Shown here: piece after piece, positions 2,456 to 25,075 of the stretch
How the letters are laid out: every line of letters starts with the position of its first letter
Position numbering within the stretch: position 1 is the first letter of the stretch
Virus record (IMG/VR): IMGVR_UViG_3300038315_000884
Coordinates: 1 to 38,246 of that record
DNA: 38,246 nt
Strand: one strand, 5' to 3'
Source of the DNA: a virus
Taxonomy: Duplodnaviria; Caudoviricetes
Notes under the pieces: generated by a model
The model's input: the letters and a program-made list of their open reading frames with translations, nothing else
Databases searched by the model: none
Told to the model about the DNA's origin: nothing
Program-made: the position numbers and the translations under genes

Positions 2456-2793
2456 CTTTTTCCCTTCCCATACCGCCCAGCGTCAACGCCATGTACGTTA
2501 ACGTGGCTGGGGTGGGCCGGGTGAAAACCACCACCTGCAAGCAATGGTATGCCGAGGCTAAAACAGAAATAATGATGCAGCGGCGGGATATTCCCGAGGT
2601 AGCAGATAAAGCCACAGTGCATTATGTGGTGCCGTACAATGGTAGGCGTGATCTGGATAACTACCTCAAGGCATTGAATGATGTGCTGGTATCCAGCGGT
2701 GTATTGCCTAGCGATAGAATGTCCTGCCTGACCGGCGTGGCTATCAAGGTGGGCGATGTGGACAGGGTGGAAGTAACGGTAACGCCTGCATGA
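2452..2793 (+). CDS. rusA: RusA-like Holliday junction resolvase
   Basis: LPIPPSVNAMY...RRDLDNYLKALNDVL..SGVLPSD. GTG start at 2452 overlaps the upstream TGA. Confidence 0.85.
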   Translation: MTFSLPIPPSVNAMYVNVAGVGRVKTTTCKQWYAEAKTEIMMQRRDIPEVADKATVHYVVPYNGRRDLDNYLKALNDVLVSSGVLPSDRMSCLTGVAIKVGDVDRVEVTVTPA

Positions 2794-3320
2794 TATGGAC
2801 CGAGAAGGAAATAGCCATTCTGGTCGAGGGCTGGGAAGCGGGTGTAACGTGCGGGCAGATCGCCATAGCCCTGGGCACGCGCACCCGTAATGCAGTTATA
2901 GGCCGCGCCCACCGGATGGGGTTGTCGGAGCGCGCCAGCCCGATCAAGGATGTAGATATCGAGGTAATTATGGAAGTGCAGCGATTAGCTATCAAGGGGT
3001 TGAAAATAAAGGAAATAATGGCCCAGACAGGAGCGGGCCGCACCACGGTTATCAAATACCGCAGGCGGCTGCGCGAGCAAGGGCTGGTCGAGGGCCGCAA
3101 GGGCTACGATCCAAAATTCTGTCAGTGGATACCGGGCGAGCCGGACGGCGCAGGCACGATATACTGCGTGCGGAAAGCCATAGACGAGTCGAGCTACTGT
3201 AACGAGCATGAGGAGTTGACCCACCGCCGCCCGTCAACACCGGAGGAAAAGGCCCGGTGGGCTGCAATGCAGCAGAAGCGCAAATATAAGCCCGGCGCAC
3301 TAACGCTGTTGCACAAATGA
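2790..3320 (+). CDS. gcrA: GcrA family cell-cycle regulator
   Basis: N-terminal WT...W..G....IA..LG..TRNAVIGRAHRMGL and C-terminal CQWIPGEP...YC...SYCNEH. Confidence 0.85.
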   Translation: MIWTEKEIAILVEGWEAGVTCGQIAIALGTRTRNAVIGRAHRMGLSERASPIKDVDIEVIMEVQRLAIKGLKIKEIMAQTGAGRTTVIKYRRRLREQGLVEGRKGYDPKFCQWIPGEPDGAGTIYCVRKAIDESSYCNEHEELTHRRPSTPEEKARWAAMQQKRKYKPGALTLLHK

Positions 3321-6659: not shown

Positions 6660-6700
6660 CAAAAAAATAGGCCGCCCCAGCGATGAGGCGGCTTTAGTTT
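6660..6700 (-). terminator. Intrinsic terminator for the leftward small-gene operon, possibly bidirectional
   Basis: GCCGCC-loop-GGCGGC hairpin. An A-run on its left gives a U-tract on the minus strand, and TTTAGTTT lies on its right. Confidence 0.75.
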
Positions 6701-7421: not shown

Positions 7422-7467
7422 AATTAAGCCTCCTAGGGGCGGCGATGGTCTGCCGCCCCGGTTGGGG

Positions 7468-7851
7468 TTACTCGCCAAAGTAAAACATGCTGGCGAAGGT
7501 AAGCAGGGCGTCTTGGTCTTGTCCCGGGGTACGTTCCCACGGTGTAAACCAGTCCTGGCCCTGCAATTCGGCATCGTGTGGATGCCCGTGTGCGTCTAGA
7601 TCACCGATGATACGCACGGCAGGCCCGCCGGTGCCAAGCAGAATTTCGTACTCGACCGCTTCGCTTTCGCCGCCAGGGCTGTACCAACCAGACCGGACTT
7701 GTACCGTTAGTGGCATTTCATGGCACCGCTCAAGGATGTTGTCGGTTAATGTGTAGCGGCTGGTTTCAACTGCCTTTCGATAGATACGGACAAGGCGTGC
7801 AATTTCCTGCATATGCCCTGCGCCGGGTATTTCCTTTGCCTCTGCGCTCAT
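7468..7851 (-). CDS. Conserved phage hypothetical protein
   Basis: EILLGTGGPAVRI.GDLD...QDWFTPW motif; GGGAG RBS. Confidence 0.75.
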   Translation of the reverse strand: MSAEAKEIPGAGHMQEIARLVRIYRKAVETSRYTLTDNILERCHEMPLTVQVRSGWYSPGGESEAVEYEILLGTGGPAVRIIGDLDAHGHPHDAELQGQDWFTPWERTPGQDQDALLTFASMFYFGE

Positions 7852-7911
7852 ATCACTCTCCCATAGTTGGTTAAAGGTATCATTGGCTAGCTAGCCGTGC
7901 CGGGGTTGGGG

Positions 7912-8109
7912 TTAAGAGCGGTCAAAGCGCGGAGTAAACTTATATGTCCCGGTGCCGTGTGCCGCCGTGTGATACTCTTTGACGGCTCGCGCGGTTTCGA
8001 TATCGGGGCAAGCGGATGCGTCTTTGATAACTTCCCATGAGGAATGCGGCCAAGGCTTGTCGCCTTTAACGCTCACCTCATAGCCTTTAAGCACGGCTTT
8101 CTTTCGCAT
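7912..8109 (-). CDS. Small hypothetical protein in an IR-flanked unit
   Basis: 65 aa ORF with GAGG RBS, bracketed by an IR pair. Confidence 0.7.
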   Translation of the reverse strand: MRKKAVLKGYEVSVKGDKPWPHSSWEVIKDASACPDIETARAVKEYHTAAHGTGTYKFTPRFDRS

Positions 8110-8184
8110 ATCGCCTCACAATCTGGCACGGCTAGGTAGCCAATGATGTTATACAGTACCGCGATAGCCGCCCTGGGTTAGGGG

Positions 8185-8379
8185 CTAAAAGTGCGGCGCA
8201 AGTTTATCCTGTACGCGCCGCCAAAAGTCTTTTTCTTCTCCGGTGCGGCAATCGTCGTACCTATCGGATGCATATTTGTCGGCATGCATTTCACCATGCC
8301 GTCGCATTAGCTGTGCGGCTATATCTGTGATTGTTTCGCCCTCACAATAGCGGGTGTAAAAGCCTTTGCCTCTTGCCAT
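8185..8379 (-). CDS. Small hypothetical protein in an IR-flanked unit
   Basis: 64 aa ORF with AGGTAGG RBS, bracketed by an IR pair. Confidence 0.7.
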   Translation of the reverse strand: MARGKGFYTRYCEGETITDIAAQLMRRHGEMHADKYASDRYDDCRTGEEKDFWRRVQDKLAPHF

Positions 8380-8504
8380 AACAACCTACCTTTCTAGGGC
8401 GGCTGTCGCGATACTGTATATGCTGCACACTCTAAAGGCTGGCCGTGTTAGGGGTTACAATGCATGAATTGTAAATTAGCCAACAATTCACAAGGTATAT
8501 GTTG

Positions 8505-8666
8505 TTAGGCGTTGTTAAGTCGCCCCCGCATAAGCTCAATTGCTTCTGCCGCCATGCGCAACTGTGTTTCGGCGGCGTTGGCTCCCTCATATTTGAAGTC
8601 GTCGCGGGCGAATTTAATGTGTCGGGATATCCGGCGCAGGCCGTCGTTGAAGTCTGTTTTAGTCAT
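8505..8666 (-). CDS. Small hypothetical protein in an IR-flanked unit, 53 aa
   Basis: Manual translation MTKTDFNDGLRRISRHIKFARDDFKYEGANAAETQLRMAAEAIELMRGRLNNA. Confidence 0.65.
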   Translation of the reverse strand: MTKTDFNDGLRRISRHIKFARDDFKYEGANAAETQLRMAAEAIELMRGRLNNA

Positions 8667-8738
8667 AACATCCAACCTTTCCGCCAGCCTTAAGGGTGTG
8701 CAGCGTGCTATGCAGTTAGACGGCGGCCCGGTTAGGGG

Positions 8739-8876
8739 TTAACTGTTGTTGTCGATCCAGTTTTGTGCGTCGGCTTGCGTGGGGAAACATGCGACGGCTA
8801 AAGATAAGCCAATGCGGGTCACCCACCGGATATCGTAGACTATGAAATAGTGCCGATATGGTTTTATTTCGTACAT
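8739..8876 (-). CDS. Small hypothetical protein in an IR-flanked unit, 45 aa
   Basis: Start MYEIKPY follows the GGAAGGTTGTT leader. Confidence 0.65.
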   Translation of the reverse strand: MYEIKPYRHYFIVYDIRWVTRIGLSLAVACFPTQADAQNWIDNNS

Positions 8877-8952
8877 AACAACCTTCCAATCTGGCCGCCA
8901 TCTAACTGCATAGCTACAATGCACTAAAAAGCCCGCTAAGTTTAGGGGAGGG

Positions 8953-9153
8953 TTATTCTATTTCGGCAAACTCTGGATTATAATGTAGTGCTTCAAGTGC
9001 AATGTCGAATAGTTCCTCATGGCGTACAAAATCACTATGATGTTTTGAATGGGTTGTAGTTCCGGGCTGGACTTTGCCGCGCCGGCCGAGAGCATTAACT
9101 GCTAAATCATGCTCTCGCCTGACGCGGCGTAAAAGTTTCTCGCGTTTAGTCAT
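8953..9153 (-). CDS. Small hypothetical protein in an IR-flanked unit, 66 aa
   Basis: Start MTKREKLL follows a leader nearly identical to that of 8739..8876. Confidence 0.65.
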   Translation of the reverse strand: MTKREKLLRRVRREHDLAVNALGRRGKVQPGTTTHSKHHSDFVRHEELFDIALEALHYNPEFAEIE

Positions 9154-9234
9154 AACAACCTTCCAATCTAGGCCGCCATTTAACTGCATAGCGTGCAAGG
9201 CTACTTAGTTGCGCCCGCCGTAGCGGGCTAGGGG

Positions 9235-9555
9235 TTATTGGGCTAGGCTTTCGTCAATTTCGTTGCCTAGGCCCCCATTGACGGCGCAGTAAACGAAACC
9301 GACGTCGTTTTCCCAGATATAGACCGTTTCGGCCCTATCTTCGACAAGCTCTGGGAAAAGCTCGCGGTCGGTCTTATCGACGGTAAACTTTTCAACCGCA
9401 GTATCGTTGTCGTAAATGGTTTCGCCACCACCGTCTAACACGAATCCCCAATAATAGGGCGTATAAACACGCTCGCCCTCGAATTTACCAGGCGACCGAA
9501 TTATTCCGGCCCTAATATCGTAGCCGTCTAAGATGTTATCTCTTGTCGTGCGCAT
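9235..9555 (-). CDS. Hypothetical protein in an IR-flanked unit, 106 aa
   Basis: MRTTRDN start with GGGAG RBS; SPGKFEGE..Y.PYYW...ENDVGFV motif. Confidence 0.75.
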   Translation of the reverse strand: MRTTRDNILDGYDIRAGIIRSPGKFEGERVYTPYYWGFVLDGGGETIYDNDTAVEKFTVDKTDRELFPELVEDRAETVYIWENDVGFVYCAVNGGLGNEIDESLAQ

Positions 9556-9633
9556 GTCATATCTCCCAGTTAAGGTGGACACAACAAAGCAGCCTTGCAT
9601 TTACTGTGCAGTTAAGTAGCGGCCGATTAGGGG

Positions 9634-9813
9634 CTAGTCGTTGTCAAAGCCCATTGAGATAAACCCGATACGCTTGCCGTCGTGTAGATTGGCGACTTGA
9701 ATGTATCCGCGCTCCGTTGTTTCCGGGTGAAAATAGTCGCGCCCGCCTTGGTGTACGAAACCCTCGTCCAGTAGGTCGGCATGGTATTGTCGCAAAAAAG
9801 GCTCTACGGTCAT
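9634..9813 (-). CDS. Small hypothetical protein in an IR-flanked unit, 59 aa
   Basis: Manual translation MTVEPFLRQYHADLLDEGFVHQGGRDYFHPETTERGYIQVANLHDGKRIGFISMGFDND; GAGGA RBS. Confidence 0.65.
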   Translation of the reverse strand: MTVEPFLRQYHADLLDEGFVHQGGRDYFHPETTERGYIQVANLHDGKRIGFISMGFDND

Positions 9814-9993
9814 TTCATCCTCACAATCCGGCCGCTGCTAAACTGCACAGCACCGTGACTATTGCCACGGCTGCGCCCGCCACCTCCGGGCGGGACTTGC
9901 GCTAGAAACCACGGGCCTAGACTTATTTTTCAGATCAGTACAATCCAGGCAATGCCATCGGCTGATCCGGGTAGGCGCGTACTAGTCAACAGC

Positions 9994-10021
9994 ACCATAC
10001 CACAACCACATACAGTGTCAA
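9994..10021 (-). promoter_or_regulatory. Putative sigma70 promoter of the leftward small-gene operon
   Basis: Minus strand reads TTGACA-16 nt-TATGGT with TG upstream of the -10 element. Confidence 0.5.
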
Positions 10022-10035
10022 GGACTAACTGACAT

Positions 10036-10051
10036 TTAATTGGCAATTAAC
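10036..10051. promoter_or_regulatory. CtrA-binding box
   Basis: TTAA-TTGGCAA-TTAAC matches the TTAA-N7-TTAAC consensus and lies between two divergent TTGACA elements. Confidence 0.65.
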
Positions 10052-10521: not shown

Positions 10522-11031
10522 GTGAGCAGCTACAGGCTAACCGGCAAACAGCTAGCATTCGCGCAAGCTGTCATCGATGGCATGAATAACATCGATGCAT
10601 ATGAGGCTGCCGGTTATTCCATGCGCCAGGGCCGGGCAACAGCTATCGCCAATGCATGTAGGCTGCGAGCACATAGCAATGTTGCAGCATGGATAGACGC
10701 CAAACGGGCAGCAATCGAGGCAAAAGCGGTAACAATAGCGGGTTACACAAAGGATGTTGCGTTAACAAATGCGCTTGATGATCGCAAGCTGGCGCGCGAG
10801 CTAGGGCAGTCCGGCTCTGCGGTATCGGCAGGCAAGCTGGCGGCTGATCTATGCGGGCATCTGGTTGAACGGCATGAAACCAAGCTCGTGGGCGGCTGGG
10901 ACAGCGTGCTGGATAGCGTTGGGCAGTCAGCTAGGGGGTTGCCTACCCCGGATGCCAACGCGCCTGTAGCACCCCACCAGGCGGATGATGATGGTGTGCA
11001 CCGCAGCAATAAGGCAAGCAAGCTGCACTAA
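10522..11031 (+). CDS. terS: Terminase small subunit
   Basis: LTGKQLAFAQAVIDGMNNIDAYEAAGYS...A.RL....V; upstream of terL. Confidence 0.85.
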   Translation: MSSYRLTGKQLAFAQAVIDGMNNIDAYEAAGYSMRQGRATAIANACRLRAHSNVAAWIDAKRAAIEAKAVTIAGYTKDVALTNALDDRKLARELGQSGSAVSAGKLAADLCGHLVERHETKLVGGWDSVLDSVGQSARGLPTPDANAPVAPHQADDDGVHRSNKASKLH

Positions 11032-11764: not shown

Positions 11765-13549
11765 ATGTCCACCCCTGCCTCTGAGCAGCCGATGTTGACA
11801 GCTATCTCTAGTGATGTTAATGATACTGGCGAGCCGTGTGTTGTGCTGGAGATAACGGGGTTTGACAGTATTACTGATGCGACTGCGTATGCGGAGATGT
11901 TTTTGCATGGAGATGGTGCGGTGTTTGAGCCGTTTGGGGGTAATGTGCATTAGGGGTTGATATGACAGAATCTGATATACTACAGGTTAAATTGGAATGT
12001 TTGCGGCAAGCGTTAAACAAGTCCAGTGATACTGTGCGGGAGTCCAAGGTGGCTGTGAGCACCAAGGCCGTTGTTGAGGATGCGGAGCAGTTTTGGGCGT
12101 TTGTTAGGCCGGTTGATGATTAAAGACGAATGACGGCATTTGAGTGCCTTGTGCTGGGGTATCTGGCATATTTGTGTGCAGTAGGCGGCAGTTTTGGCAA
12201 AACCAGTTGGGCGGTGGCCTTTTTTGCTGTCGGCTCGATCATGTGGTTTATGGCGGGGGCGGTTAAGACATGGACAGGCTAGCAGAGATACGTGCGGGAT
12301 GGACGGTGCAGGAGCCGCCTGAGGGCGAGACTGCCCTTGACCCTGACGTAGCCTACCTCCTCCGCATAGCCGAGGCGGCGCGGGGCTATATGAATACTGA
12401 TATGGGGGCAGGATATGACCGAGAGACTTCCGTTGAAAGGTGGGAAGCCCTCCGCGCAGCCCTTGAGGCCGAGGATGACTGACAACTTACGAGCCATTAT
12501 TGCACTGCGTGATATCCGGGATATCCTGGCCTCGAAGGCGTATGTGAAATGGCTGACCTGGTAGAGCGGCTGCGGAATATGCACGACTTTCCAAATTATG
12601 GTTTGCAGTCTGAGACCGCCGATGAGATAGAGCGGCTGCGGGCTGAGTTGAGAGGCACGCGAGCCGAATATCAGCATTCGGTAGGACAGCCTTTGTTTTG
12701 GCACAGCGGGCTTGCGCGAATGGTGACGGCAGAAGACTGGGCCGCAGCCGAAGAAGAGTGGAGGGGTCAATGACTGGCCTAAACATCCCCGCGCTGGTGC
12801 GGATGCAGGAGCGGAATAACTGGCTGAATGAGGCTATGGCTGTAAAGGGCAACACATTCGGCCCTGCCGGGCTTTTGGCCGACCCCAACCGCGATATGGG
12901 CCATTGGGGCAAGCGCAGCCCACCGCCGCTGGTGCGCGAGCCCAGTAGGGGTGGTAGTAAAGGTAAAACAGGGCATGAGGTTGCGCTGGACGGGTGTGAT
13001 CTTGGTTTCCACCCGAATTATCGCAAGAAGGTCTGGGGCTACTGATGGGGTGGTTATGGGTTATAGCGATAAGTCTATCGTTGCTGTATTGGGGTATCCC
13101 GGCGGCGGCTGACTTTGTGGCTTGGGCTGTGTTATGACCGCCTACCATGAGCCGGTTAAGCCTGTCGTTGTGGAGCCGCTAGTGGATAGGCTGCTTGAAA
13201 TTGCCAATAGCGGGGTTATCACGCTGGCAGGCCGGAATTCCTGCACTGAAGCTGTCTTTGCTTTGGAAGCCAAGGACGCCACGATAAACTACCTGCGGGG
13301 CCAGTTGTTGAAGGAAAAGACTTAGTGGAAGATGCCGACTACAAGGAAATTATTCGGGTGCTGGCTGATATCAGGTATGACATGGCTGACATGGCCGATG
13401 AGGTGCGGCGGCTTGCTACCAAAATGGGGTATGGGTATGGAGAAGATATTCCCAATGCCACCAAGGAGGATATCCGCAAACGCGAGATTGAGGTAGCCGT
13501 GCATCTGAAGCAGGACGACAACATAATTAAGTTGCCTGAAGTACCGTAA
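11765..13549 (+). other. Cluster of short hypothetical ORFs between terS and terL
   Basis: Consecutive, often coupled + strand ORFs, e.g. 11765-11953, 11962-12123, 12270-12482, 12549-12773 (MADLVERLR...ADEIERLR), 12770-13045 and 13325-13549. Confidence 0.6.
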
Positions 13550-16206
13550 TGGACGCCGCCCAGCAAGCCGCAGTAGACAAATTCAAGGACAAGGGGTGGC
13601 GGCTGAATAATTTATACACGATAACGGACAAGCACGGCAAGTCTGTCCCCTTCAGGATGAATTGGGGTCAGCAGCAACTCTTTGATAATATGACGCATTT
13701 GAGCATAATCTTGAAATGCCGTCAAGTCGGATTTTCTACATTCATTCAACTGTACATGCTGGATGAGTGCATATTCCACCCCGATGTGCGGGCCGGGGTT
13801 ATCGCCCACAGCCTGGAAGATGCTCAAGCGATATTCAGGGACAAGGTGAAGTATCCATATGACAATTTACCCGAGGGGTTGCGGGCGGCTAACCCCGCTA
13901 CAACTGATAGTGCCCGCCAGCTTTCTTTCAATAATAACAGTAGCTTACGGGTAGGCACTTCGTTGAGGTCGGGCACTTTTCAGTACCTTCACGTTTGTTT
14001 GGCCGGTGAAACGGGCGTTTACACCAAGAACGGCAAAGTCAAACCAATTCAAGATATAGTGCCGGGCGACCGGGTGCTGACCAGCAAAGGCTCGTATCGG
14101 CCTGTCAAGGCGCTGGTAAAAAACGACTTGGCCGAGCTTGGCTTCCGGATGCTTGAGTTTGATGTTTTTGGTTGGTACGAGCCGCTAAGGCTGACCGAAA
14201 ACCACCCGGTTATGACGCGGCAGCACAAGACAGGCAAGCCGGTGTGGAAGCCTGCGGGAGATGTGGTGCCGGGCGACTATTTGGCGTTTCCGGTCACGGA
14301 GCCCTGCAATAAGCTGCGTGGGCGCACACTGACCATCGGCAATAGACAGGTCGCGCCCGTATTCGATCTGGGCTGGCTGGCTGGGTTTTATCTGGCCGAG
14401 GGTACGACAAGACGACGGGCCGGTTACGACCCGACCGAGGTAACATTCTCGGTGGACAAGGACGAGGTTGAAAATCTTCGGGGCATACTTGAAAGCCTTT
14501 TGGATAACTTCGATCCGCCGATCCATAGAGATGCCCCGGCGATACGGGAATACGCTCACAAGGACAGCCGCACACGGGCGGTTAACGTCAATTCCCGCTC
14601 GATGGCGACTTGGCTGTACGACGAGTTTGGCGCAGTAGACGAAAAGCGTATCCCTGATAAGGTTTGGGGCTGGGGCGCGCCGTTTATACGGGGCCTGATA
14701 AAGGGGTATTTCGACGGGGATGGTAATTATACCGACCCTCATTCGGTTTCGGTTGTTTCCACACGGCGGCAGATGATAGACCAATTGCGGCGGCTGCTGG
14801 TTTCAATGCGGTACGGTGTGCCGTCTGTTACCCATGCGGATGCGGGCCTTAAATACGGCCGCAATTGCAAGGAGCAGTGGACGCTTAAACTATACGGGCC
14901 GGGCAACTGGAAATATCGTGAAGAGCACGGGCTTCCCTTCCCCGAGGTTAACACATGGGCGGGGAAATGGCGTATAAAGCACGGGCATCGTCCAGACGGA
15001 CGCAAGCGGTGGAGGCGCGGAAAAGACGTTTACTGGGCCAGGGTGAAAAGATGCGAGGAAATTAAACCCACTGAATATGTTTATGATATTGCGCTTGACG
15101 TAGCACCACATGACTTTGTAACAGTTAACGGCGTAGTCCATAATAGTGAATTCGGCAAAATTGCAGCGGCGTATCCTGAAAAAGCTAGAGAAATTAAGAC
15201 TGGTGCGTTTAATACAGTCCAGGCCGGGGAGTTAATCTGGGTTGAAAGCACGGCGGAAGGACAAGAGGGTGCATTCTATGACATGTGCGAGGTCGCTCAG
15301 GAGAAGGACCGGCAAGGGGTTAAGATCACGCCGCTTGACTTCAAATTTCATTTTTTTCCTTGGTGGAAGCACCCCGAGTATCGACTTGACGCTGGCGATC
15401 TTGTCATACCCAGCCCGATTGAGCGATATGTTGAGGGGCTGGGCGACGAGCATAACATCCACCTTGAAGACGACCAGGTAGCATGGTACGTCAAGAAGTC
15501 GGAGGTGCTGGGCAGTGATATCAAGCGGGAATTCCCCTCTACAGCGGCAGAGGCTTTCGAGGCGAGTATCGAGGGGGCATACTACGCAGATCAGATGGCA
15601 AGAGCGGATGGGGACGGGCGAATTACTAACGTGCCTCACGATTCGGCGGCCAAGGTCGAGGTCTGGCACGATCTTGGCATTGGCGACAGTACCGTGCAGT
15701 GGTATATCCAACGGGTTGGAAAAGAAATCCACGTCATAGACTATTATGAAAATTCTGGCGAGTCACTGGCCCACTACGTTAACAAGATATCAGACCTTGG
15801 CAAGCCTATCGAGGCCGGTGGAAGGGCTTTCGACTACGAAGCCTACGTCTTCCCCCATGATGTCAAGGCGAGAGAGCTTATCGCGGGGAAAACACGGGAA
15901 GAGACATTGCGGTCGCTTGGTATCAGTGCTAGTGTGATACCGCAGCACAAGGTGGAGGATGGAATTGAGGCGGTTAGAAACCTGTTGCCGAGATGCTGGC
16001 TCGATGCGTCTAAGTGCAGCGAGGGTATCAAGCATCTTAGGGCTTACCGGAAGGACTGGGACGAGGCCCACGGCACCTGGAAAAACAAGCCGAGGCATGA
16101 TGCATCTAGCCATGCTGCTGACGCCTTCCGCTACGGTGCAATGTTTAGAGGGCGGCGACCGCGTGATCCGAGTGTCAAGGTCTACCCGGAGCTCGGTAAA
16201 TACTAA
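13549..16206 (+). CDS. terL: Terminase large subunit containing an intein (about 502 aa after splicing)
   Basis: IILKCRQVGFST (Walker A), split Walker B LHV|SE, VESTAEG, nuclease WHDLGIGDS and C-terminal HDASSHAADAFRY. Confidence 0.95.
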   Translation: MDAAQQAAVDKFKDKGWRLNNLYTITDKHGKSVPFRMNWGQQQLFDNMTHLSIILKCRQVGFSTFIQLYMLDECIFHPDVRAGVIAHSLEDAQAIFRDKVKYPYDNLPEGLRAANPATTDSARQLSFNNNSSLRVGTSLRSGTFQYLHVCLAGETGVYTKNGKVKPIQDIVPGDRVLTSKGSYRPVKALVKNDLAELGFRMLEFDVFGWYEPLRLTENHPVMTRQHKTGKPVWKPAGDVVPGDYLAFPVTEPCNKLRGRTLTIGNRQVAPVFDLGWLAGFYLAEGTTRRRAGYDPTEVTFSVDKDEVENLRGILESLLDNFDPPIHRDAPAIREYAHKDSRTRAVNVNSRSMATWLYDEFGAVDEKRIPDKVWGWGAPFIRGLIKGYFDGDGNYTDPHSVSVVSTRRQMIDQLRRLLVSMRYGVPSVTHADAGLKYGRNCKEQWTLKLYGPGNWKYREEHGLPFPEVNTWAGKWRIKHGHRPDGRKRWRRGKDVYWARVKRCEEIKPTEYVYDIALDVAPHDFVTVNGVVHNSEFGKIAAAYPEKAREIKTGAFNTVQAGELIWVESTAEGQEGAFYDMCEVAQEKDRQGVKITPLDFKFHFFPWWKHPEYRLDAGDLVIPSPIERYVEGLGDEHNIHLEDDQVAWYVKKSEVLGSDIKREFPSTAAEAFEASIEGAYYADQMARADGDGRITNVPHDSAAKVEVWHDLGIGDSTVQWYIQRVGKEIHVIDYYENSGESLAHYVNKISDLGKPIEAGGRAFDYEAYVFPHDVKARELIAGKTREETLRSLGISASVIPQHKVEDGIEAVRNLLPRCWLDASKCSEGIKHLRAYRKDWDEAHGTWKNKPRHDASSHAADAFRYGAMFRGRRPRDPSVKVYPELGKY
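13996..15144 (+). mobile_element. Intein with LAGLIDADG homing endonuclease, 383 aa
   Basis: Starts CLAGET, block B LTENHP, LAGLIDADG motifs LAGFYLAEG and LIKGYFDGDG, ends VYDI...VVHN followed by Ser. Confidence 0.95.
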
Positions 16207-22084: not shown

Positions 22085-23292
22085 ATGACGCTAACTACAA
22101 ATGTGTTTACCCAATTTGATGCGGCGGGCAACAGAGAAGATTTGAGCGATTTCATTTGGGACGTAAGCCCAACGGATACGCCCTTTGTCTCCTCGATTGC
22201 CAAGACCACATCAACTGCGGTTAAGCACGAATGGATGACCGACGCATTAGCAGATGCGGCGTCTAACCAACAGTTGGAAGGCGACAGCATTAGTGCTGCG
22301 GCTTCCACGGCAACCACGCGCTTGGATAACGTAAACCAGATCAGCTACAAGGCTCTGGGCGTTTCCGGCACGCAGGAAGCCATCATCAAGGCCGGGCGCA
22401 AATCAGAATTAAAATACCAAATTCTGAAGTGCTCAAAAGAGCTAAAGCGTGGAATTTTTTATCGCGCCCTTGCTGCGTAAGCAGTAAGTTAACATCCCGT
22501 GAATTGCTGGGAGCCCTTCGGGGTAATCAGCAGCCAAGCCGCCACCGAAAGGGGCGGACGGTCCAGAGACTAGGCCATGGAGCCCTTCGGGGCAGTAAAG
22601 GTCCACGAGCGCGGGACACCCTTCGGGGTGATGATATAGTCCGATACTCCGGTGAAAACCGGAGACTGAGGATAAAGAGCCTCAGATAACATCTGGATAT
22701 CGAATTAGCTCTTCTGGCTAGCAACGCCAAGGTTACTGGTAACACCACGACGGCCCGTGAGACTGCGGGTTACCCGACCTGGATGCTGACCAACACCAAC
22801 CGTGGCACTGGGGGTGCGAATCCCACCGGCGACGGCTCCGATACGCCCACCAACGGCACCAAGCGTGCGTTTTCCGAGACTATCGTGAAGGACGTGCTGC
22901 GGCAGTGTTTCGAGGAAGGCGGCGATCCGGACTGCATCCTTGCCGGGCCTGCTCACAAGCAGGACTTCAGTGGCTTTACCGGCAACGCCACACGCTTTAA
23001 GGGTGCTGAAGACAACACCCTTGTCGCTTCAATTGAAATTTACAGGAGCGATTTTGGCGATTTGCAAGTAAAACCAGCAAGATATCTAAACGGCGTCAGT
23101 GGTACTGACACCACGGGTATCCGTGAAGCGTTGGTGATCCAGACCGATATGTGGGCATTAGCTACGTTGCGTGCGCCGCATATGTTTGATCTCGCCCGAG
23201 ATGGCGATAGCGAAAGGCGCGTTGTCTTAGCTGAGTACGCACTCGAATCCCGCAATGAGAAGGCCAGCGGCATAGCAGCTGACCTGAGTTAG
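22085..23292 (+). CDS. Major capsid protein (DUF5309/SU10-like), spliced from exon 1 (22085-22450) and exon 2 (22696-23292), 320 aa
   Basis: GNREDLSDFI.DVSPTDTPF...HEW.TD.L. Joining the exons restores KELKR|DIELALL in frame with the 22783 ORF ending RNEKASGIAADL. Confidence 0.93.
22451..22695 (+). ncRNA. Group I self-splicing intron without ORF, 245 nt
   Basis: The 5' exon ends in U and the intron ends in G. Conserved P GAATTGCTGG, Q AATCAGCAG, R CAGAGACTA and S GATATAGTCC. The internal guide TATCGCGC pairs with both exon ends. UUCG/GAAA-capped hairpins. Confidence 0.93.
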
Positions 23293-23313: not shown

Positions 23314-23853
23314 ATGAAGAAAATCCTTTCAATTGCTCTGGCACTCACTCTTGGACTGTTTGGCCTGGCTTATGCCGGGTACAACGTGCAGGAGCCCGAC
23401 TGGGGTGGATCAAGCATGGTCCACACCGATGGTAGCTCTATCGGCCACGGTGACGCCGGAATGGCGTTTTCCGTTACCGGCATTGATAGTGCAGCCACCT
23501 ACTATGTCACGAGCGCCAAGAATGGGCGGATTACCAAAATCTTCGCCGCTCTTGGTACTGTGTTGGCATCTGGGCCTAGCCCGGTCTTTACAATCTTCAT
23601 CGACAAAGAGTCCGACGCAGTAGGGCAGTTTAGCCGGGTCAGCGACCTGTCTAACGAGTCCTTGGCGGACCTTTCGCAGATTGTCTGGGCCGACGATGGC
23701 ATCGCGACGGGCACGGCAGGGTCGCAGACCTTTGTCGTATTCGCTGCGAAGGTCACTAGCTCGTATATCAGCGCGGGCGATGTGATTGCCATTGTAGGCG
23801 ACGGCGGTGGAGTCGGCGGACTGGACGCCACATTCACTATCGTTATCGAGTAG
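23314..23853 (+). CDS. Putative capsid decoration/fibre-like protein with N-terminal signal peptide
   Basis: Immediately follows the MCP. Beta-rich, G/S/T/A-rich body. MKKILSIALALTLGLFGLAYA is a classic Sec/SPI signal. Confidence 0.6.
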   Translation: MKKILSIALALTLGLFGLAYAGYNVQEPDWGGSSMVHTDGSSIGHGDAGMAFSVTGIDSAATYYVTSAKNGRITKIFAALGTVLASGPSPVFTIFIDKESDAVGQFSRVSDLSNESLADLSQIVWADDGIATGTAGSQTFVVFAAKVTSSYISAGDVIAIVGDGGGVGGLDATFTIVIE

Positions 23854-23854
23854 A

Positions 23855-25075
23855 ATGGGCTGGCTCGCGGCAATACTGATTGTCGCGGGCCTTTCCCTTC
23901 ACGGGGTTGGGACGTTTAACCCCGACCCGCCTAAATGGCTGGCGATCTACGGCTTTTTCCTGGTCTTTAGTATCTGGCTGTTTTTTGCCAAGCCCAAGAT
24001 GACCCCCGCTGTATGGGGTTTGCTGGCATTTCTATGCTGGTGCGCTTTAAGTCTCCTGTGGTCGCCTGATTGGCGCGCAGGGGTGTTGCGCCTTCAGCAT
24101 CTAGCCGCACTCTCGGGAGTGTTTTGCTGGGTGTTGTGGGCGAAGCATCCGTTGAAGGCAATATTGCCTGCAGTTACCATATCGGGAATTCTCGCGGGCG
24201 GTTTTTATCTCTACCACGACCAGAAATTCTGGGCCGGATACGGGAATGAGGTGTTTCTGGCGGAATATCTGATACTGAGCCTGCCGTTTTGCCTGTGCGC
24301 CATACTTTCCAGCCGCCGCTGGGTGCAAGTGTGTGGCATTTTTGCAACAATGGCCGGATTAGTACTGCTAACGCTAAACCTCTCAGACACCCGCTGGGCG
24401 GCGCTGGGTGGCTTTTGCGTGCTTTGGCTACTTTGGCACCGGAAATGGTACTATGCCGCCCTATCCGTCCTTATACCGCTCAACGGGGCACTTCTGGCCG
24501 GGTGGTTTAGCGGCGAGACGCTCAGCAGCATCAGGGACAGGGCGGAAATCTGGTACAACACATCTGTTATGTGGCTGGATTACCCCTTGTTTGGAGTTGG
24601 AATAGGTAATTTCAACTATGTCTACTACAGATATCAGGAAATGCATACGGAGGTATTCACTTGGGGGACGCTGTTAAAAAGAGCGAATGTGTATGCGGGA
24701 GCGGCTCACAACGAAGGCTTACAAATGTTGGCCGAGTTAGGGGCCGTTGGGCTGTTGTTGCTCCTTATTTTCATGACCCTATGTTTATACCGCAGTCGGA
24801 GTGGTCTTGGCCTGTCGATACTCGCATGTGCCCTCGCTGTGGGGAGCCTAGGTTTCCCGACGCAAAACCCGGCGACGGCCCTGCTGATCGCGATGGGGAT
24901 GGGTCTTGCGGCTAGGGAGGTACGTTATCCTGCTTACCGCACTGTCGGTGCTCGTATCGGGGGTGTTTTGGTTTCAATCCCTGCGGCACTTTGGGGCGGC
25001 ACGGGCCTTGATAAGGACCAACGCTTTCGCCGCATTCAAGGCCGAGATGGCCGCGCTGGAAATATACCAGCTTGA
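23855..25075 (+). CDS. O-antigen ligase / O-oligosaccharyltransferase (Wzy_C) family membrane protein, main part
   Basis: About 10-12 hydrophobic segments; SIRDRAEIW...PLFGVGIGNF...AHNEGLQMLAELGAVG signature. Confidence 0.85.
   Translation: MGWLAAILIVAGLSLHGVGTFNPDPPKWLAIYGFFLVFSIWLFFAKPKMTPAVWGLLAFLCWCALSLLWSPDWRAGVLRLQHLAALSGVFCWVLWAKHPLKAILPAVTISGILAGGFYLYHDQKFWAGYGNEVFLAEYLILSLPFCLCAILSSRRWVQVCGIFATMAGLVLLTLNLSDTRWAALGGFCVLWLLWHRKWYYAALSVLIPLNGALLAGWFSGETLSSIRDRAEIWYNTSVMWLDYPLFGVGIGNFNYVYYRYQEMHTEVFTWGTLLKRANVYAGAAHNEGLQMLAELGAVGLLLLLIFMTLCLYRSRSGLGLSILACALAVGSLGFPTQNPATALLIAMGMGLAAREVRYPAYRTVGARIGGVLVSIPAALWGGTGLDKDQRFRRIQGRDGRAGNIPA

What the first reader, a model, noticed from the sequence alone, without database searches (positions are those of the whole stretch)
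7879..9850. Daisy-chain of small early genes, each enclosed by its own inverted-repeat pair
Seen in sequence: seven consecutive minus-strand genes of 45-106 aa each have an upstream arm just before the RBS and a complementary arm just after the gene. The pairs are 7879-7901/8125-8147 (22 of 23 match), 8150-8174/8396-8420 (23 of 25), 8421-8443/8683-8705 (20 of 23), 8707-8728/8893-8914 (21 of 22), 8916-8937/9171-9192 (degenerate, about 14 of 22), 9193-9216/9577-9600 and 9604-9625/9829-9850 (20 of 22). Arms differ between genes but match within a pair, so pairing is conserved rather than sequence. The downstream arm of one gene abuts the upstream arm of the next within 0-3 nt. Established: about 22 bp of dsRNA is a typical RNase III substrate; rRNA precursors are excised by such long-range stems, whereas T7 early RNase III sites are local hairpins. 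Inference: the polycistronic RNA folds into stems that each loop out one whole gene and is cut into end-protected or circularised monocistronic mRNAs. Alternatively the arms act on ssDNA as boundaries of exchangeable gene cassettes. I do not recognise this as a named system.
Basis: partly seen in the sequence, partly recalled or inferred. Interest (0 to 1): 0.9.

Follow-up and report, generated by a model that had tools for sequence, protein, structure and literature searches.

The report
Swappable phage genes inside RNA stems
In one operon of a marine phage, six of seven small genes each sit between two complementary 22-25-base flanks that related phages keep while the gene between them differs; the flanks likely fold the message into rRNA-precursor-like stems that a host enzyme would cut into single, end-clamped messages.

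Summary
Six genes have their own inverted-repeat pair (19/24 to 22/23 matches), the arms abut within 0-3 nt, and shuffles give nothing like it (8 hits vs mean 0.025). Pair 5 is not decayed but probably recombinant: a co-occurring relative carries an arm that fits its orphan arm.

DNA runs holding this phage show relatives that keep the arms, RBS and post-stop motif while the gene between is replaced or unalignable. One variant lacks unit 2 arm to arm.

All six stems pass the published E. coli RNase III score threshold but do no better than shuffled stems. They resemble alphaproteobacterial 16S processing stalks (central mismatch, GC clamp on the loop side; post hoc). No RNA data exist and nothing favours one strand.

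Best reading (0.55): RNase III stalks release end-paired single-gene mRNAs, and the conserved flanks double as recombination joints. I found no paper on this layout. This scan noted it before in at least seven other phage genomes.

The parts
9994..10021 (-). Sigma-70-like promoter (TTGACA, 16 nt, TG-TATGGT) heading the operon
   Evidence: 10 of 12 with extended -10 (consensus match only); 9987-10045 is kept with 8 differences in a relative
9853..9894 (-). Two short leader hairpins before the first arm
   Evidence: centroid fold
9829..9850 (-). Unit 7 5' arm
   Evidence: 20/22 with 9604-9625
9634..9813 (-). Unit 7 gene, 59 aa, no family
   Evidence: a relative has 77 other letters in place of 9603-9986
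9604..9625 (-). Unit 7 3' arm; can also pair with the unit 5 5' arm
9577..9600 (-). Unit 6 5' arm
9235..9555 (-). Unit 6 gene, 106 aa, unnamed phage protein family
   Evidence: no fold match with E<=0.001
9193..9216 (-). Unit 6 3' arm
   Evidence: 19/24 plus 3 G-U
9171..9192 (-). Unit 5 5' arm, a near copy of the unit 4 5' arm and RBS
   Evidence: 95% over 42 nt
8953..9153 (-). Unit 5 gene, 66 aa
8916..8937 (-). Unit 5 3' arm, orphan here; a fitting partner is seen in a relative
8893..8914 (-). Unit 4 5' arm
   Evidence: 21/22
8739..8876 (-). Unit 4 gene, 45 aa
8707..8728 (-). Unit 4 3' arm
8683..8705 (-). Unit 3 5' arm
   Evidence: 20/23
8505..8666 (-). Unit 3 gene, 53 aa, followed by 48 spare nt before the slot's own stop motif
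8421..8443 (-). Unit 3 3' arm
8396..8420 (-). Unit 2 5' arm
   Evidence: 23/25
8185..8379 (-). Unit 2 gene, 64 aa; the whole unit 8150-8421 is absent in a variant
8150..8174 (-). Unit 2 3' arm
8125..8147 (-). Unit 1 5' arm
   Evidence: 22/23
7912..8109 (-). Unit 1 gene, 65 aa
7879..7901 (-). Unit 1 3' arm
7468..7851 (-). Next gene (127 aa): no enclosing stem, but the same stop + CCCC motif
   Evidence: (z 0.2)
7436..7459 (-). Local 8-bp GC hairpin after the 127-aa gene, possibly a fused remnant of two arms (inference)
   Evidence: -20 kcal/mol for 7430-7470
6671..6692 (-). Terminator-like hairpin with U run closing the operon after three more unbracketed genes
   Evidence: consensus match only

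Best explanation
Six small phage genes each sit in a slot between two complementary flanks that related phages keep while the gene inside differs; the flanks likely pair in the message, and host RNase III would likely cut each stem to release single-gene messages whose two ends are predicted to stay paired. Steps: (1) One promoter at 10021-9994 and a terminator at 6692 suggest one transcript (consensus matches; inferred). (2) Each 5' arm pairs with its 3' arm as it is made, closing the gene in a 22-25-bp helix (predicted). (3) The homodimeric host RNase III cuts near the middle of each helix, as at 16S/23S precursor stalks (inferred from size, central mismatches and likeness to host-class stalks). 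(4) The GC-rich inner half keeps the new 5' and 3' ends clamped, which would slow end-dependent decay (pairing predicted; protection inferred from recalled RNase E/J and PNPase behaviour). (5) Selection on pairing keeps arms, RBS and stop motif conserved, so they also serve as short homologies for recombination that replaces the gene from start codon to stop, or adds or drops a whole unit. The variation is shown; homologous recombination as its cause is inferred (the phage carries a YqaJ/RecE-like exonuclease).
For: IRs far above chance and confined to this operon. Cognate duplexes -36.6 to -44.3 kcal/mol for six units, with stem probabilities 0.61-1.0. All six score -20.7 to -23.4 on the E. 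coli RNase III pair table, above the paper's -25.5 threshold; the unit 5 pair scores -29.7. The best register is central in 4 of 6. All 7 internal mismatches lie at stem positions 11-16. The inner 8 bp hold 6-7 G-C pairs in 5 of 6 stems against 2-5 in the outer 8. 16S stalks from the host's likely class show the same polarity (26 stems aligned; p 0.0036 against shuffled pair order). Fragments left by a central cut keep their ends paired (p 0.81-1.0) in 5 of 6 units. Joints in DNA runs fall at or next to start codons (8107, 8664, 9553, 9151), at or just past stops (7904, 8456, 9237, 9234) and at arm junctions (8149/8422, 8704/9196, 9602). Relatives of the unit 6 protein elsewhere have no such stem (0 of 22 genes called among 29 loci), so the arms belong to the slot, not the gene.
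Against: No sequence signature beyond being a long helix: the RNase III scores do not beat pair-shuffled controls (p 0.08-0.98), and the opposite strand scores about as well. The 16S likeness was seen first and tested afterwards, falls to p 0.17 with mismatch positions fixed, and fits the opposite strand at least as well. G-U pairs show no strand bias (6 on the coding strand, 5 on the other). At equilibrium the unit 7 stem is displaced by a cross pair with the unit 5 arm (0.89 vs 0.0). Unit 6 ends are not predicted to stay in register after a cut. Unit 5 persists without a stem. In E. coli, long loops between paired cuts are infrequent (PMC6212723, passage). In S. aureus icaR, 5'-3' pairing with RNase III cutting lowers expression rather than raising it (PMC3868564, abstract).
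Confidence: 0.55

Rival explanations
1. The stems work uncut, or are nicked by another enzyme. They insulate the folding of each gene, shield the long message, or damp translation of toxic early genes, as 5'-3' UTR pairing does in S. aureus icaR.
For: No RNase III-specific sequence signal. The 5' arm ends 1-13 nt before the RBS, and local folds leave parts of several RBSs paired. The post-stop CCCCU resembles icaR's UCCCCUG (PMC3868564, abstract).
Against: The post-stop motif does not pair with its own RBS better than shuffles (sum -41.0 vs -47.0, p 0.86). The SD lies outside the main helix. A 22-25-bp helix is a default RNase III substrate (PMC6212723, passage).
Confidence: 0.2
2. The arms are primarily DNA cassette ends: on single-stranded DNA each unit folds with the gene in the loop, and a recombinase or template switching excises, inserts or replaces it (integron-like). 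RNA pairing is a by-product.
For: Unit 2 is missing arm to arm, with one A between 8149 and 8422 (depth 44 vs 48.7 in X3, 5 vs 8.8 in X1). No strand bias. The unit 4 arms contain GTTRRRY/RYYYAAC-like heptamers (sequence; motif recalled).
Against: That heptamer is in only 2 of 7 5' arms. Junction sequence and spacing vary (TGCA to TGCA 5-9 nt). No tyrosine or serine recombinase among the 57 ORFs scanned, though the contig is incomplete. No inversion or go-back joints were listed. Most exchange breakpoints lie inside the arms, at start and stop codons, which plain homologous recombination explains.
Confidence: 0.15
3. Cut messages are ligated into circular mRNAs.
For: A central cut leaves 5'-P and 3'-OH ends held together (PMC6212723, passage).
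Against: No RNA ligase among the ORFs scanned (contig incomplete), and no precedent in the literature search.
Confidence: 0.05
4. The arms are neutral scars of an insertion process and have no current function.
For: Unit 5 lives without a partner, and arms 4, 5 and 7 are recent copies.
Against: Arms of different units differ in sequence yet match within pairs. Arms stay near-identical between genotypes whose cargo no longer aligns at 80%. Mismatches cluster mid-stem.
Confidence: 0.05

Closest known systems
RNase III processing stalks flanking 16S and 23S rRNA in bacterial rrn operons (PMC8708148, passages; PMC6212723, passages)
   Same: Complementary flanks close a whole product in a long-range helix within one transcript. 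In 26 aligned 16S stalks of the host's likely class: central mismatch, 2 bp, weak pair, GC clamp on the loop side.
   Different: The cargo is protein-coding; six stalks abut in series; loops are about 160-360 nt; slots vary between genotypes; cutting is not shown.
Phage T7 early transcript RNase III sites such as R1.1 (PMC3867540, PMC8708148, passages)
   Same: An early polycistronic phage message proposed to be cut into units by the host enzyme.
   Different: T7 sites are local hairpins between genes (R1.1 is 49 nt). Here local junction folds are weak (-5 to -15 kcal/mol) and the strong helices enclose genes.
dicF-dicB intergenic RNase III stem of an E. coli prophage (PMC6212723 Table S5a: paired cuts 130 nt apart, score -23.9)
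   Same: A phage-derived long-range stem cut in vivo, scoring in the same range as these stems.
   Different: It is a single stem around an intergenic RNA, not an array around genes.
PeSL cassettes of T4-type phages RB49/phi1 (PMC2839356, abstract and section 16)
   Same: Conserved regulatory flanks mark where orphan genes are inserted, deleted or replaced.
   Different: PeSLs are direct repeats of a promoter plus terminator and recombine with each other. Here one promoter serves all, and each slot has its own inverted pair. The 127-aa gene's homologues in phages XM05 and Gurke sit in such promoter-terminator units without enclosing stems.
S. aureus icaR 5'-3' UTR pairing (PMC3868564, abstract)
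   Same: The two ends of one mRNA pair and form an RNase III substrate.
   Different: icaR pairing covers the SD and represses. Here the helix ends before the SD, and the CCCCU motif shows no excess pairing with the RBS.

Membership tests
RNase III long-range processing stalk | About 22 bp of helix closing the product | tested here: met
   Six units, 22-25 bp; not met for unit 5
RNase III long-range processing stalk | Pair pattern scoring as an in vivo substrate | tested here: inconclusive
   6 of 6 pass -25.5, but none beats shuffled pair order; the table is from E. coli
RNase III long-range processing stalk | Acts on the transcribed strand | tested here: inconclusive
   No G-U or score bias between strands
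RNase III long-range processing stalk | rnc-dependent cuts with 2-nt 3' overhang inside the stem | not testable with these tools
   Needs RNA end mapping or in vitro cleavage
T7-type early RNase III sites | Local hairpin between genes | tested here: not met
   Junction folds -5.0 to -14.7 vs cognate duplexes -37 to -44 kcal/mol; only the site after the 127-aa gene is local
PeSL cassettes | Promoter plus terminator repeated at each boundary | tested here: not met
   One strong promoter match and one strong terminator for the operon; none repeated at the junctions
PeSL cassettes | Gene gain, loss or replacement at the conserved flanks | tested here: met
   Six joints at arm, start or stop boundaries
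Integron cassette array (attC) | Local attC hairpin with conserved RYYYAAC/GTTRRRY cores at each junction (motif recalled) | tested here: not met
   Core in 2 of 7 5' arms (sequence); weak, variable junction folds
Integron cassette array (attC) | Integron integrase nearby | tested here: inconclusive
   None among 57 ORFs; contig open at both ends
Known structured RNA family (Rfam) | Match to a covariance model | tested here: not met
   The only match in the window at E<=1 is a group I intron at 22434-22664
icaR-type SD/3'UTR repression | 3' UTR motif pairs with its own SD | tested here: not met
   p 0.86 against shuffles over 7 units

The most novel reading that the evidence does not exclude
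A phage gene-slot system modelled on the host's ribosomal RNA stalks. Each slot is a ready-made frame (arm, RBS, start codon, stops in more than one frame, arm) into which unrelated genes are loaded. Each slot yields an end-clamped, possibly circularised, long-lived mRNA, and whole slots are gained and lost precisely by a hairpin-guided DNA reaction.
Probability: 0.2. Interest if true: 0.9.

Novelty: new variant of a known kind. Interest (0 to 1): 0.7.

Why it matters
If true, phages use the rRNA-maturation trick on messenger RNA: one early promoter gives many separate, end-protected messages, and the same flanks give safe break points for swapping accessory genes. That would be a third solution beside T7-type hairpins and repeated promoter-terminator cassettes. 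It is cheap to test: the 2-kb array can be synthesised and the predicted cuts are given to the base. It also suggests a portable way to stabilise bacterial mRNAs. The new element here is population evidence that the slots are modular.

Tried and rejected
No RNA holder was listed for this stretch; this says nothing on expression.

No close relative could be fetched as sequence. The terminase small subunit and unit 6 single-protein scans gave nothing. An arm pattern gave 0. The junction pattern gave one chance locus. The arm-family pattern gave 14 metagenome and 1 viral stretch, of which only L090 matched the window, at 100% identity. So no covariation alignment could be built.

No stem chain was found in 8 loci of the 127-aa gene, in 56 of 80 viral portal loci scanned (24 under 5 kb left out; only about 12 reach far enough upstream; one abutting pair in L032), in 67 of 80 genome portal loci (13 under 8 kb left out; one abutting pair in L138), or in 6 cultured-phage records or regions. 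These relatives are distant (27-51% portal identity), so the negatives are weak.

blastn of the array against cultured phages gave three short chance matches. The seven cargo proteins matched nothing in PHROGs, Pfam, PADLOC or NCBIfam. Unit 6 had no named match in the Atlas, PDB or BFVD (model pLDDT 88.7).

Rejected: RBS pairing with the post-stop motif; local junction hairpins as the main fold; integron attC. A first 16S comparison used faulty anchors and was redone. One fold timed out and was rerun in pieces.

Full report
Setting. The window is a whole 38,246-nt contig, open at both ends, of a tailed phage. It has portal, scaffolding, capsid and DNA ejection genes, terminase subunits at 10522 and 13549, and a YqaJ/RecE-like exonuclease at 168-962. 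A GcrA-family gene and alphaproteobacterial records among the portal relatives point to an alphaproteobacterial host (inference). The nearest portal among deposited phage records is 40% identical. The stretch is held at high word share by 6 DNA runs of 5 studies, mostly marine metagenomes; 3 of these runs may be its source. The array lies in a leftward operon between a promoter-like site at 10021-9994 and a terminator-like site at 6692-6671. 'Early' is inferred from that position and the host-type promoter.

The observation. The seven pairs are at the stated coordinates with 22/23, 23/25, 20/23, 21/22, 14/22, 19/24 and 20/22 matches, and they abut with gaps of 0-3 nt. All 8 long-range repeat hits of the window fall in this array, against a mean of 0.025 in 200 shuffles. 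Six hits are cognate pairs and two are cross pairs among the related arms of units 4, 5 and 7. Each slot reads, on the coding strand: 5' arm, a shared RBS block, ATG, gene, stop, CCCC(T/A)A, 3' arm. In most slots a second stop follows in another frame (sequence). In unit 3 the gene stops 48 nt early and the slot's own TAA-CCCC is still there, so that motif belongs to the slot. Cognate duplexes are -36.6 to -44.3 kcal/mol, unit 5 only -13.9. Stem probabilities are 0.89-1.0 for units 1-4, 0.61 for unit 6 and 0.88 for unit 7 until the unit 5 arm has been made; after that an alternative helix (unit 7 3' arm with unit 5 5' arm, 0.89) wins at equilibrium.

Variation in nature (contigs of runs X1, X2, X3 and X6; 24 rows of the piece table were not shown; X1 and X3 are one sample; X1-X3 may be the source). 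Six joints were listed. 7904 to 8107, 8456 to 8664 and 9237 to 9553 keep both arms of units 1, 3 and 6 but not the gene between. For unit 6 the replaced part is 255 nt instead of 315, from record coordinates. 8704 to 9196 replaces units 4 and 5 with 643 nt. 9602 to 9987 puts 77 other letters where unit 7 and its leader lie. 8149 to 8422 drops unit 2 arm to arm with one A between (depth 44 vs 48.7 in X3; 5 vs 8.8 in X1), while X2 shows no break there. The branch at 8704 also appears in X6, a run of another study. A low-depth contig (2.6) holds 9151-9234 with other letters on both sides. Read by hand from the 30-nt loose ends, the gene behind the unit 5 start codon begins MAWEWSHT instead of MTKREKLL (unrelated), while the gene ending in slot 6 ends EIGERDLS against EIDESLAQ and may be a diverged orthologue. 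So 'replaced' is shown for one slot, is likely where lengths differ, and is open for the others. Unitigs cannot be phased; depths suggest at least two other genotypes.

Unit 5. The loose end before 9196 is the relative's 5' arm at that position. An 18-nt part of it matches the window once, at 8917-8934, with 3 mismatches (0.02 expected), which is the orphan 3' arm of unit 5. The window's own unit 5 5' arm and RBS are a 95% copy of unit 4's. The simplest reading is that slot 5 is a recombinant that lost its proper partner (inference).

Arms belong to slots, not genes. The unit 6 protein has a small unnamed family. In 29 viral loci of that family there is no abutting chain. None of the 22 loci in which the gene could be called has flank pairing (z -1.7 to +1.8, against -10.4 in the window). 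Homologues of the 127-aa gene in cultured phages XM05 and Gurke sit in repeated promoter-terminator units instead.

RNase III tests. I scored every register with the in vivo pair counts of Altuvia et al. (PMC6212723; seen: passages, sections 16 and 27, Table S4 and part of Table S5a). Units 1, 2, 3, 4, 6 and 7 score -20.7, -20.8, -21.4, -22.8, -22.7 and -23.4, above the -25.5 threshold; unit 5 scores -29.7. But shuffling pair order gives the same scores (p 0.08-0.98), and the opposite strand scores -20.7 to -24.1. The stems are therefore adequate substrates, not diagnostic ones. All 7 internal mismatches lie at positions 11-16, and units 3 and 7 have two mismatches two pairs apart. I then extracted 16S stalks from 32 loci of the host's likely class: 31 gave a stem, 5 without an internal mismatch were dropped, 26 were aligned, and one atypical stem (L230) was kept. 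Their consensus is a central mismatch, two pairs, a G-U and a CGGCGG-type clamp on the loop side. The phage stems fit this class profile in the same polarity (p 0.0036) and not flipped (p 0.50). The fit drops to p 0.17 with mismatches fixed, the opposite strand fits as well (p <0.0002 and 0.019), and the profile was built after I saw the likeness. By eye, 4 of 19 23S stalks found show the mismatch, 2 bp, mismatch pattern. After a central cut the released fragment keeps its ends paired in 5 of 6 units.

Mechanism. I commit to RNase III stalks that release end-clamped single-gene mRNAs, with the conserved flanks doubling as recombination joints (0.55). Shown: the repeats, their placement, and modular variation at their borders. 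Predicted: the folds. Inferred: transcription as one message, cutting, stabilisation, and homologous recombination as the exchange route. That paired ends resist RNase E, RNase J and 3' exonucleases is recalled; PMC10939160 (passages) supports only the 5'-monophosphate preference of these enzymes. Rivals: uncut or repressive stems (0.2), a DNA-level cassette machine (0.15), circles (0.05), neutral scars (0.05).

Comparison and novelty. It works like an rRNA precursor stalk (PMC8708148, passages), serves the purpose of T7's local sites (PMC3867540, passages; PMC1540722, abstract only) and varies like PeSL regions (PMC2839356, abstract and section 16; PMC4122927, search listing only). It fails the defining layout of T7 sites, PeSLs, integrons and icaR (PMC3868564, abstract and outline). 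Nine full-text searches found no description of phage genes each enclosed by its own stalk. The library lacks most subscription papers and older phage literature, and bioRxiv supplements were not seen. Unchecked notes of this scan report the same layout in at least seven other phage genomes. I did not test those and do not count them as support, but they suggest the layout recurs. I class it as a new variant of a known kind, interest 0.7.

Noticed in passing
window 22434-22664 (+), between capsid ORFs 22085-22480 and 22783-23292: Group I intron in the major capsid gene (Rfam RF00028, 81.3 bits); the capsid gene of phage C72C1 is also annotated in two pieces.
   Followed up: partly
window 13549-16206 (+): Terminase large subunit with an intein carrying a LAGLIDADG-like domain.
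   Followed up: no
window 2790-3320 (+): GcrA-family cell-cycle regulator gene, pointing to an alphaproteobacterial host.
   Followed up: no
window 23807-25075 (+): O-antigen-ligase-like gene inside the virion gene block (Pfam Wzy_C, E 1e-11).
   Followed up: no
window 7464, 7908, 8181, 8451, 8735, 9231, 9630 (and a variant near 8945): Stop codon followed by CCCC(T/A)A at every slot end; it does not pair with its own RBS above chance. Unexplained; it may supply stops in more than one frame or a recombination microhomology.
   Followed up: partly
window 7436-7459 and the loose end before 7877 in runs X2 and X3: A relative has another arm-like sequence with a GC clamp just downstream of unit 1, where the window has no arm; the window's local hairpin after the 127-aa gene may be a collapsed slot.
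   Followed up: no
L107 (Erythrobacter phage XM05) and L109 (Brevundimonas phage Gurke): Long runs of small genes, each with a repeated promoter (25 and 13 copies), a terminator-like hairpin and TTAA-N7-TTAA boxes (CtrA-like; name recalled).
   Followed up: no
L230-L258: 16S leader-trailer stalks across the class of G004 share a conserved sequence layout (purine-rich outer helix, one mismatch, CGGCGG clamp).
   Followed up: partly
L205:1464-1749 and L200:3423-3653: Single strong gene-scale inverted repeats in two loci of the unit 6 family (26/28; z -9.9), not in chains.
   Followed up: no
L001:5168-5388: 41/48 inverted repeat around a 125-nt segment upstream of a homologue of the 127-aa gene.
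   Followed up: no
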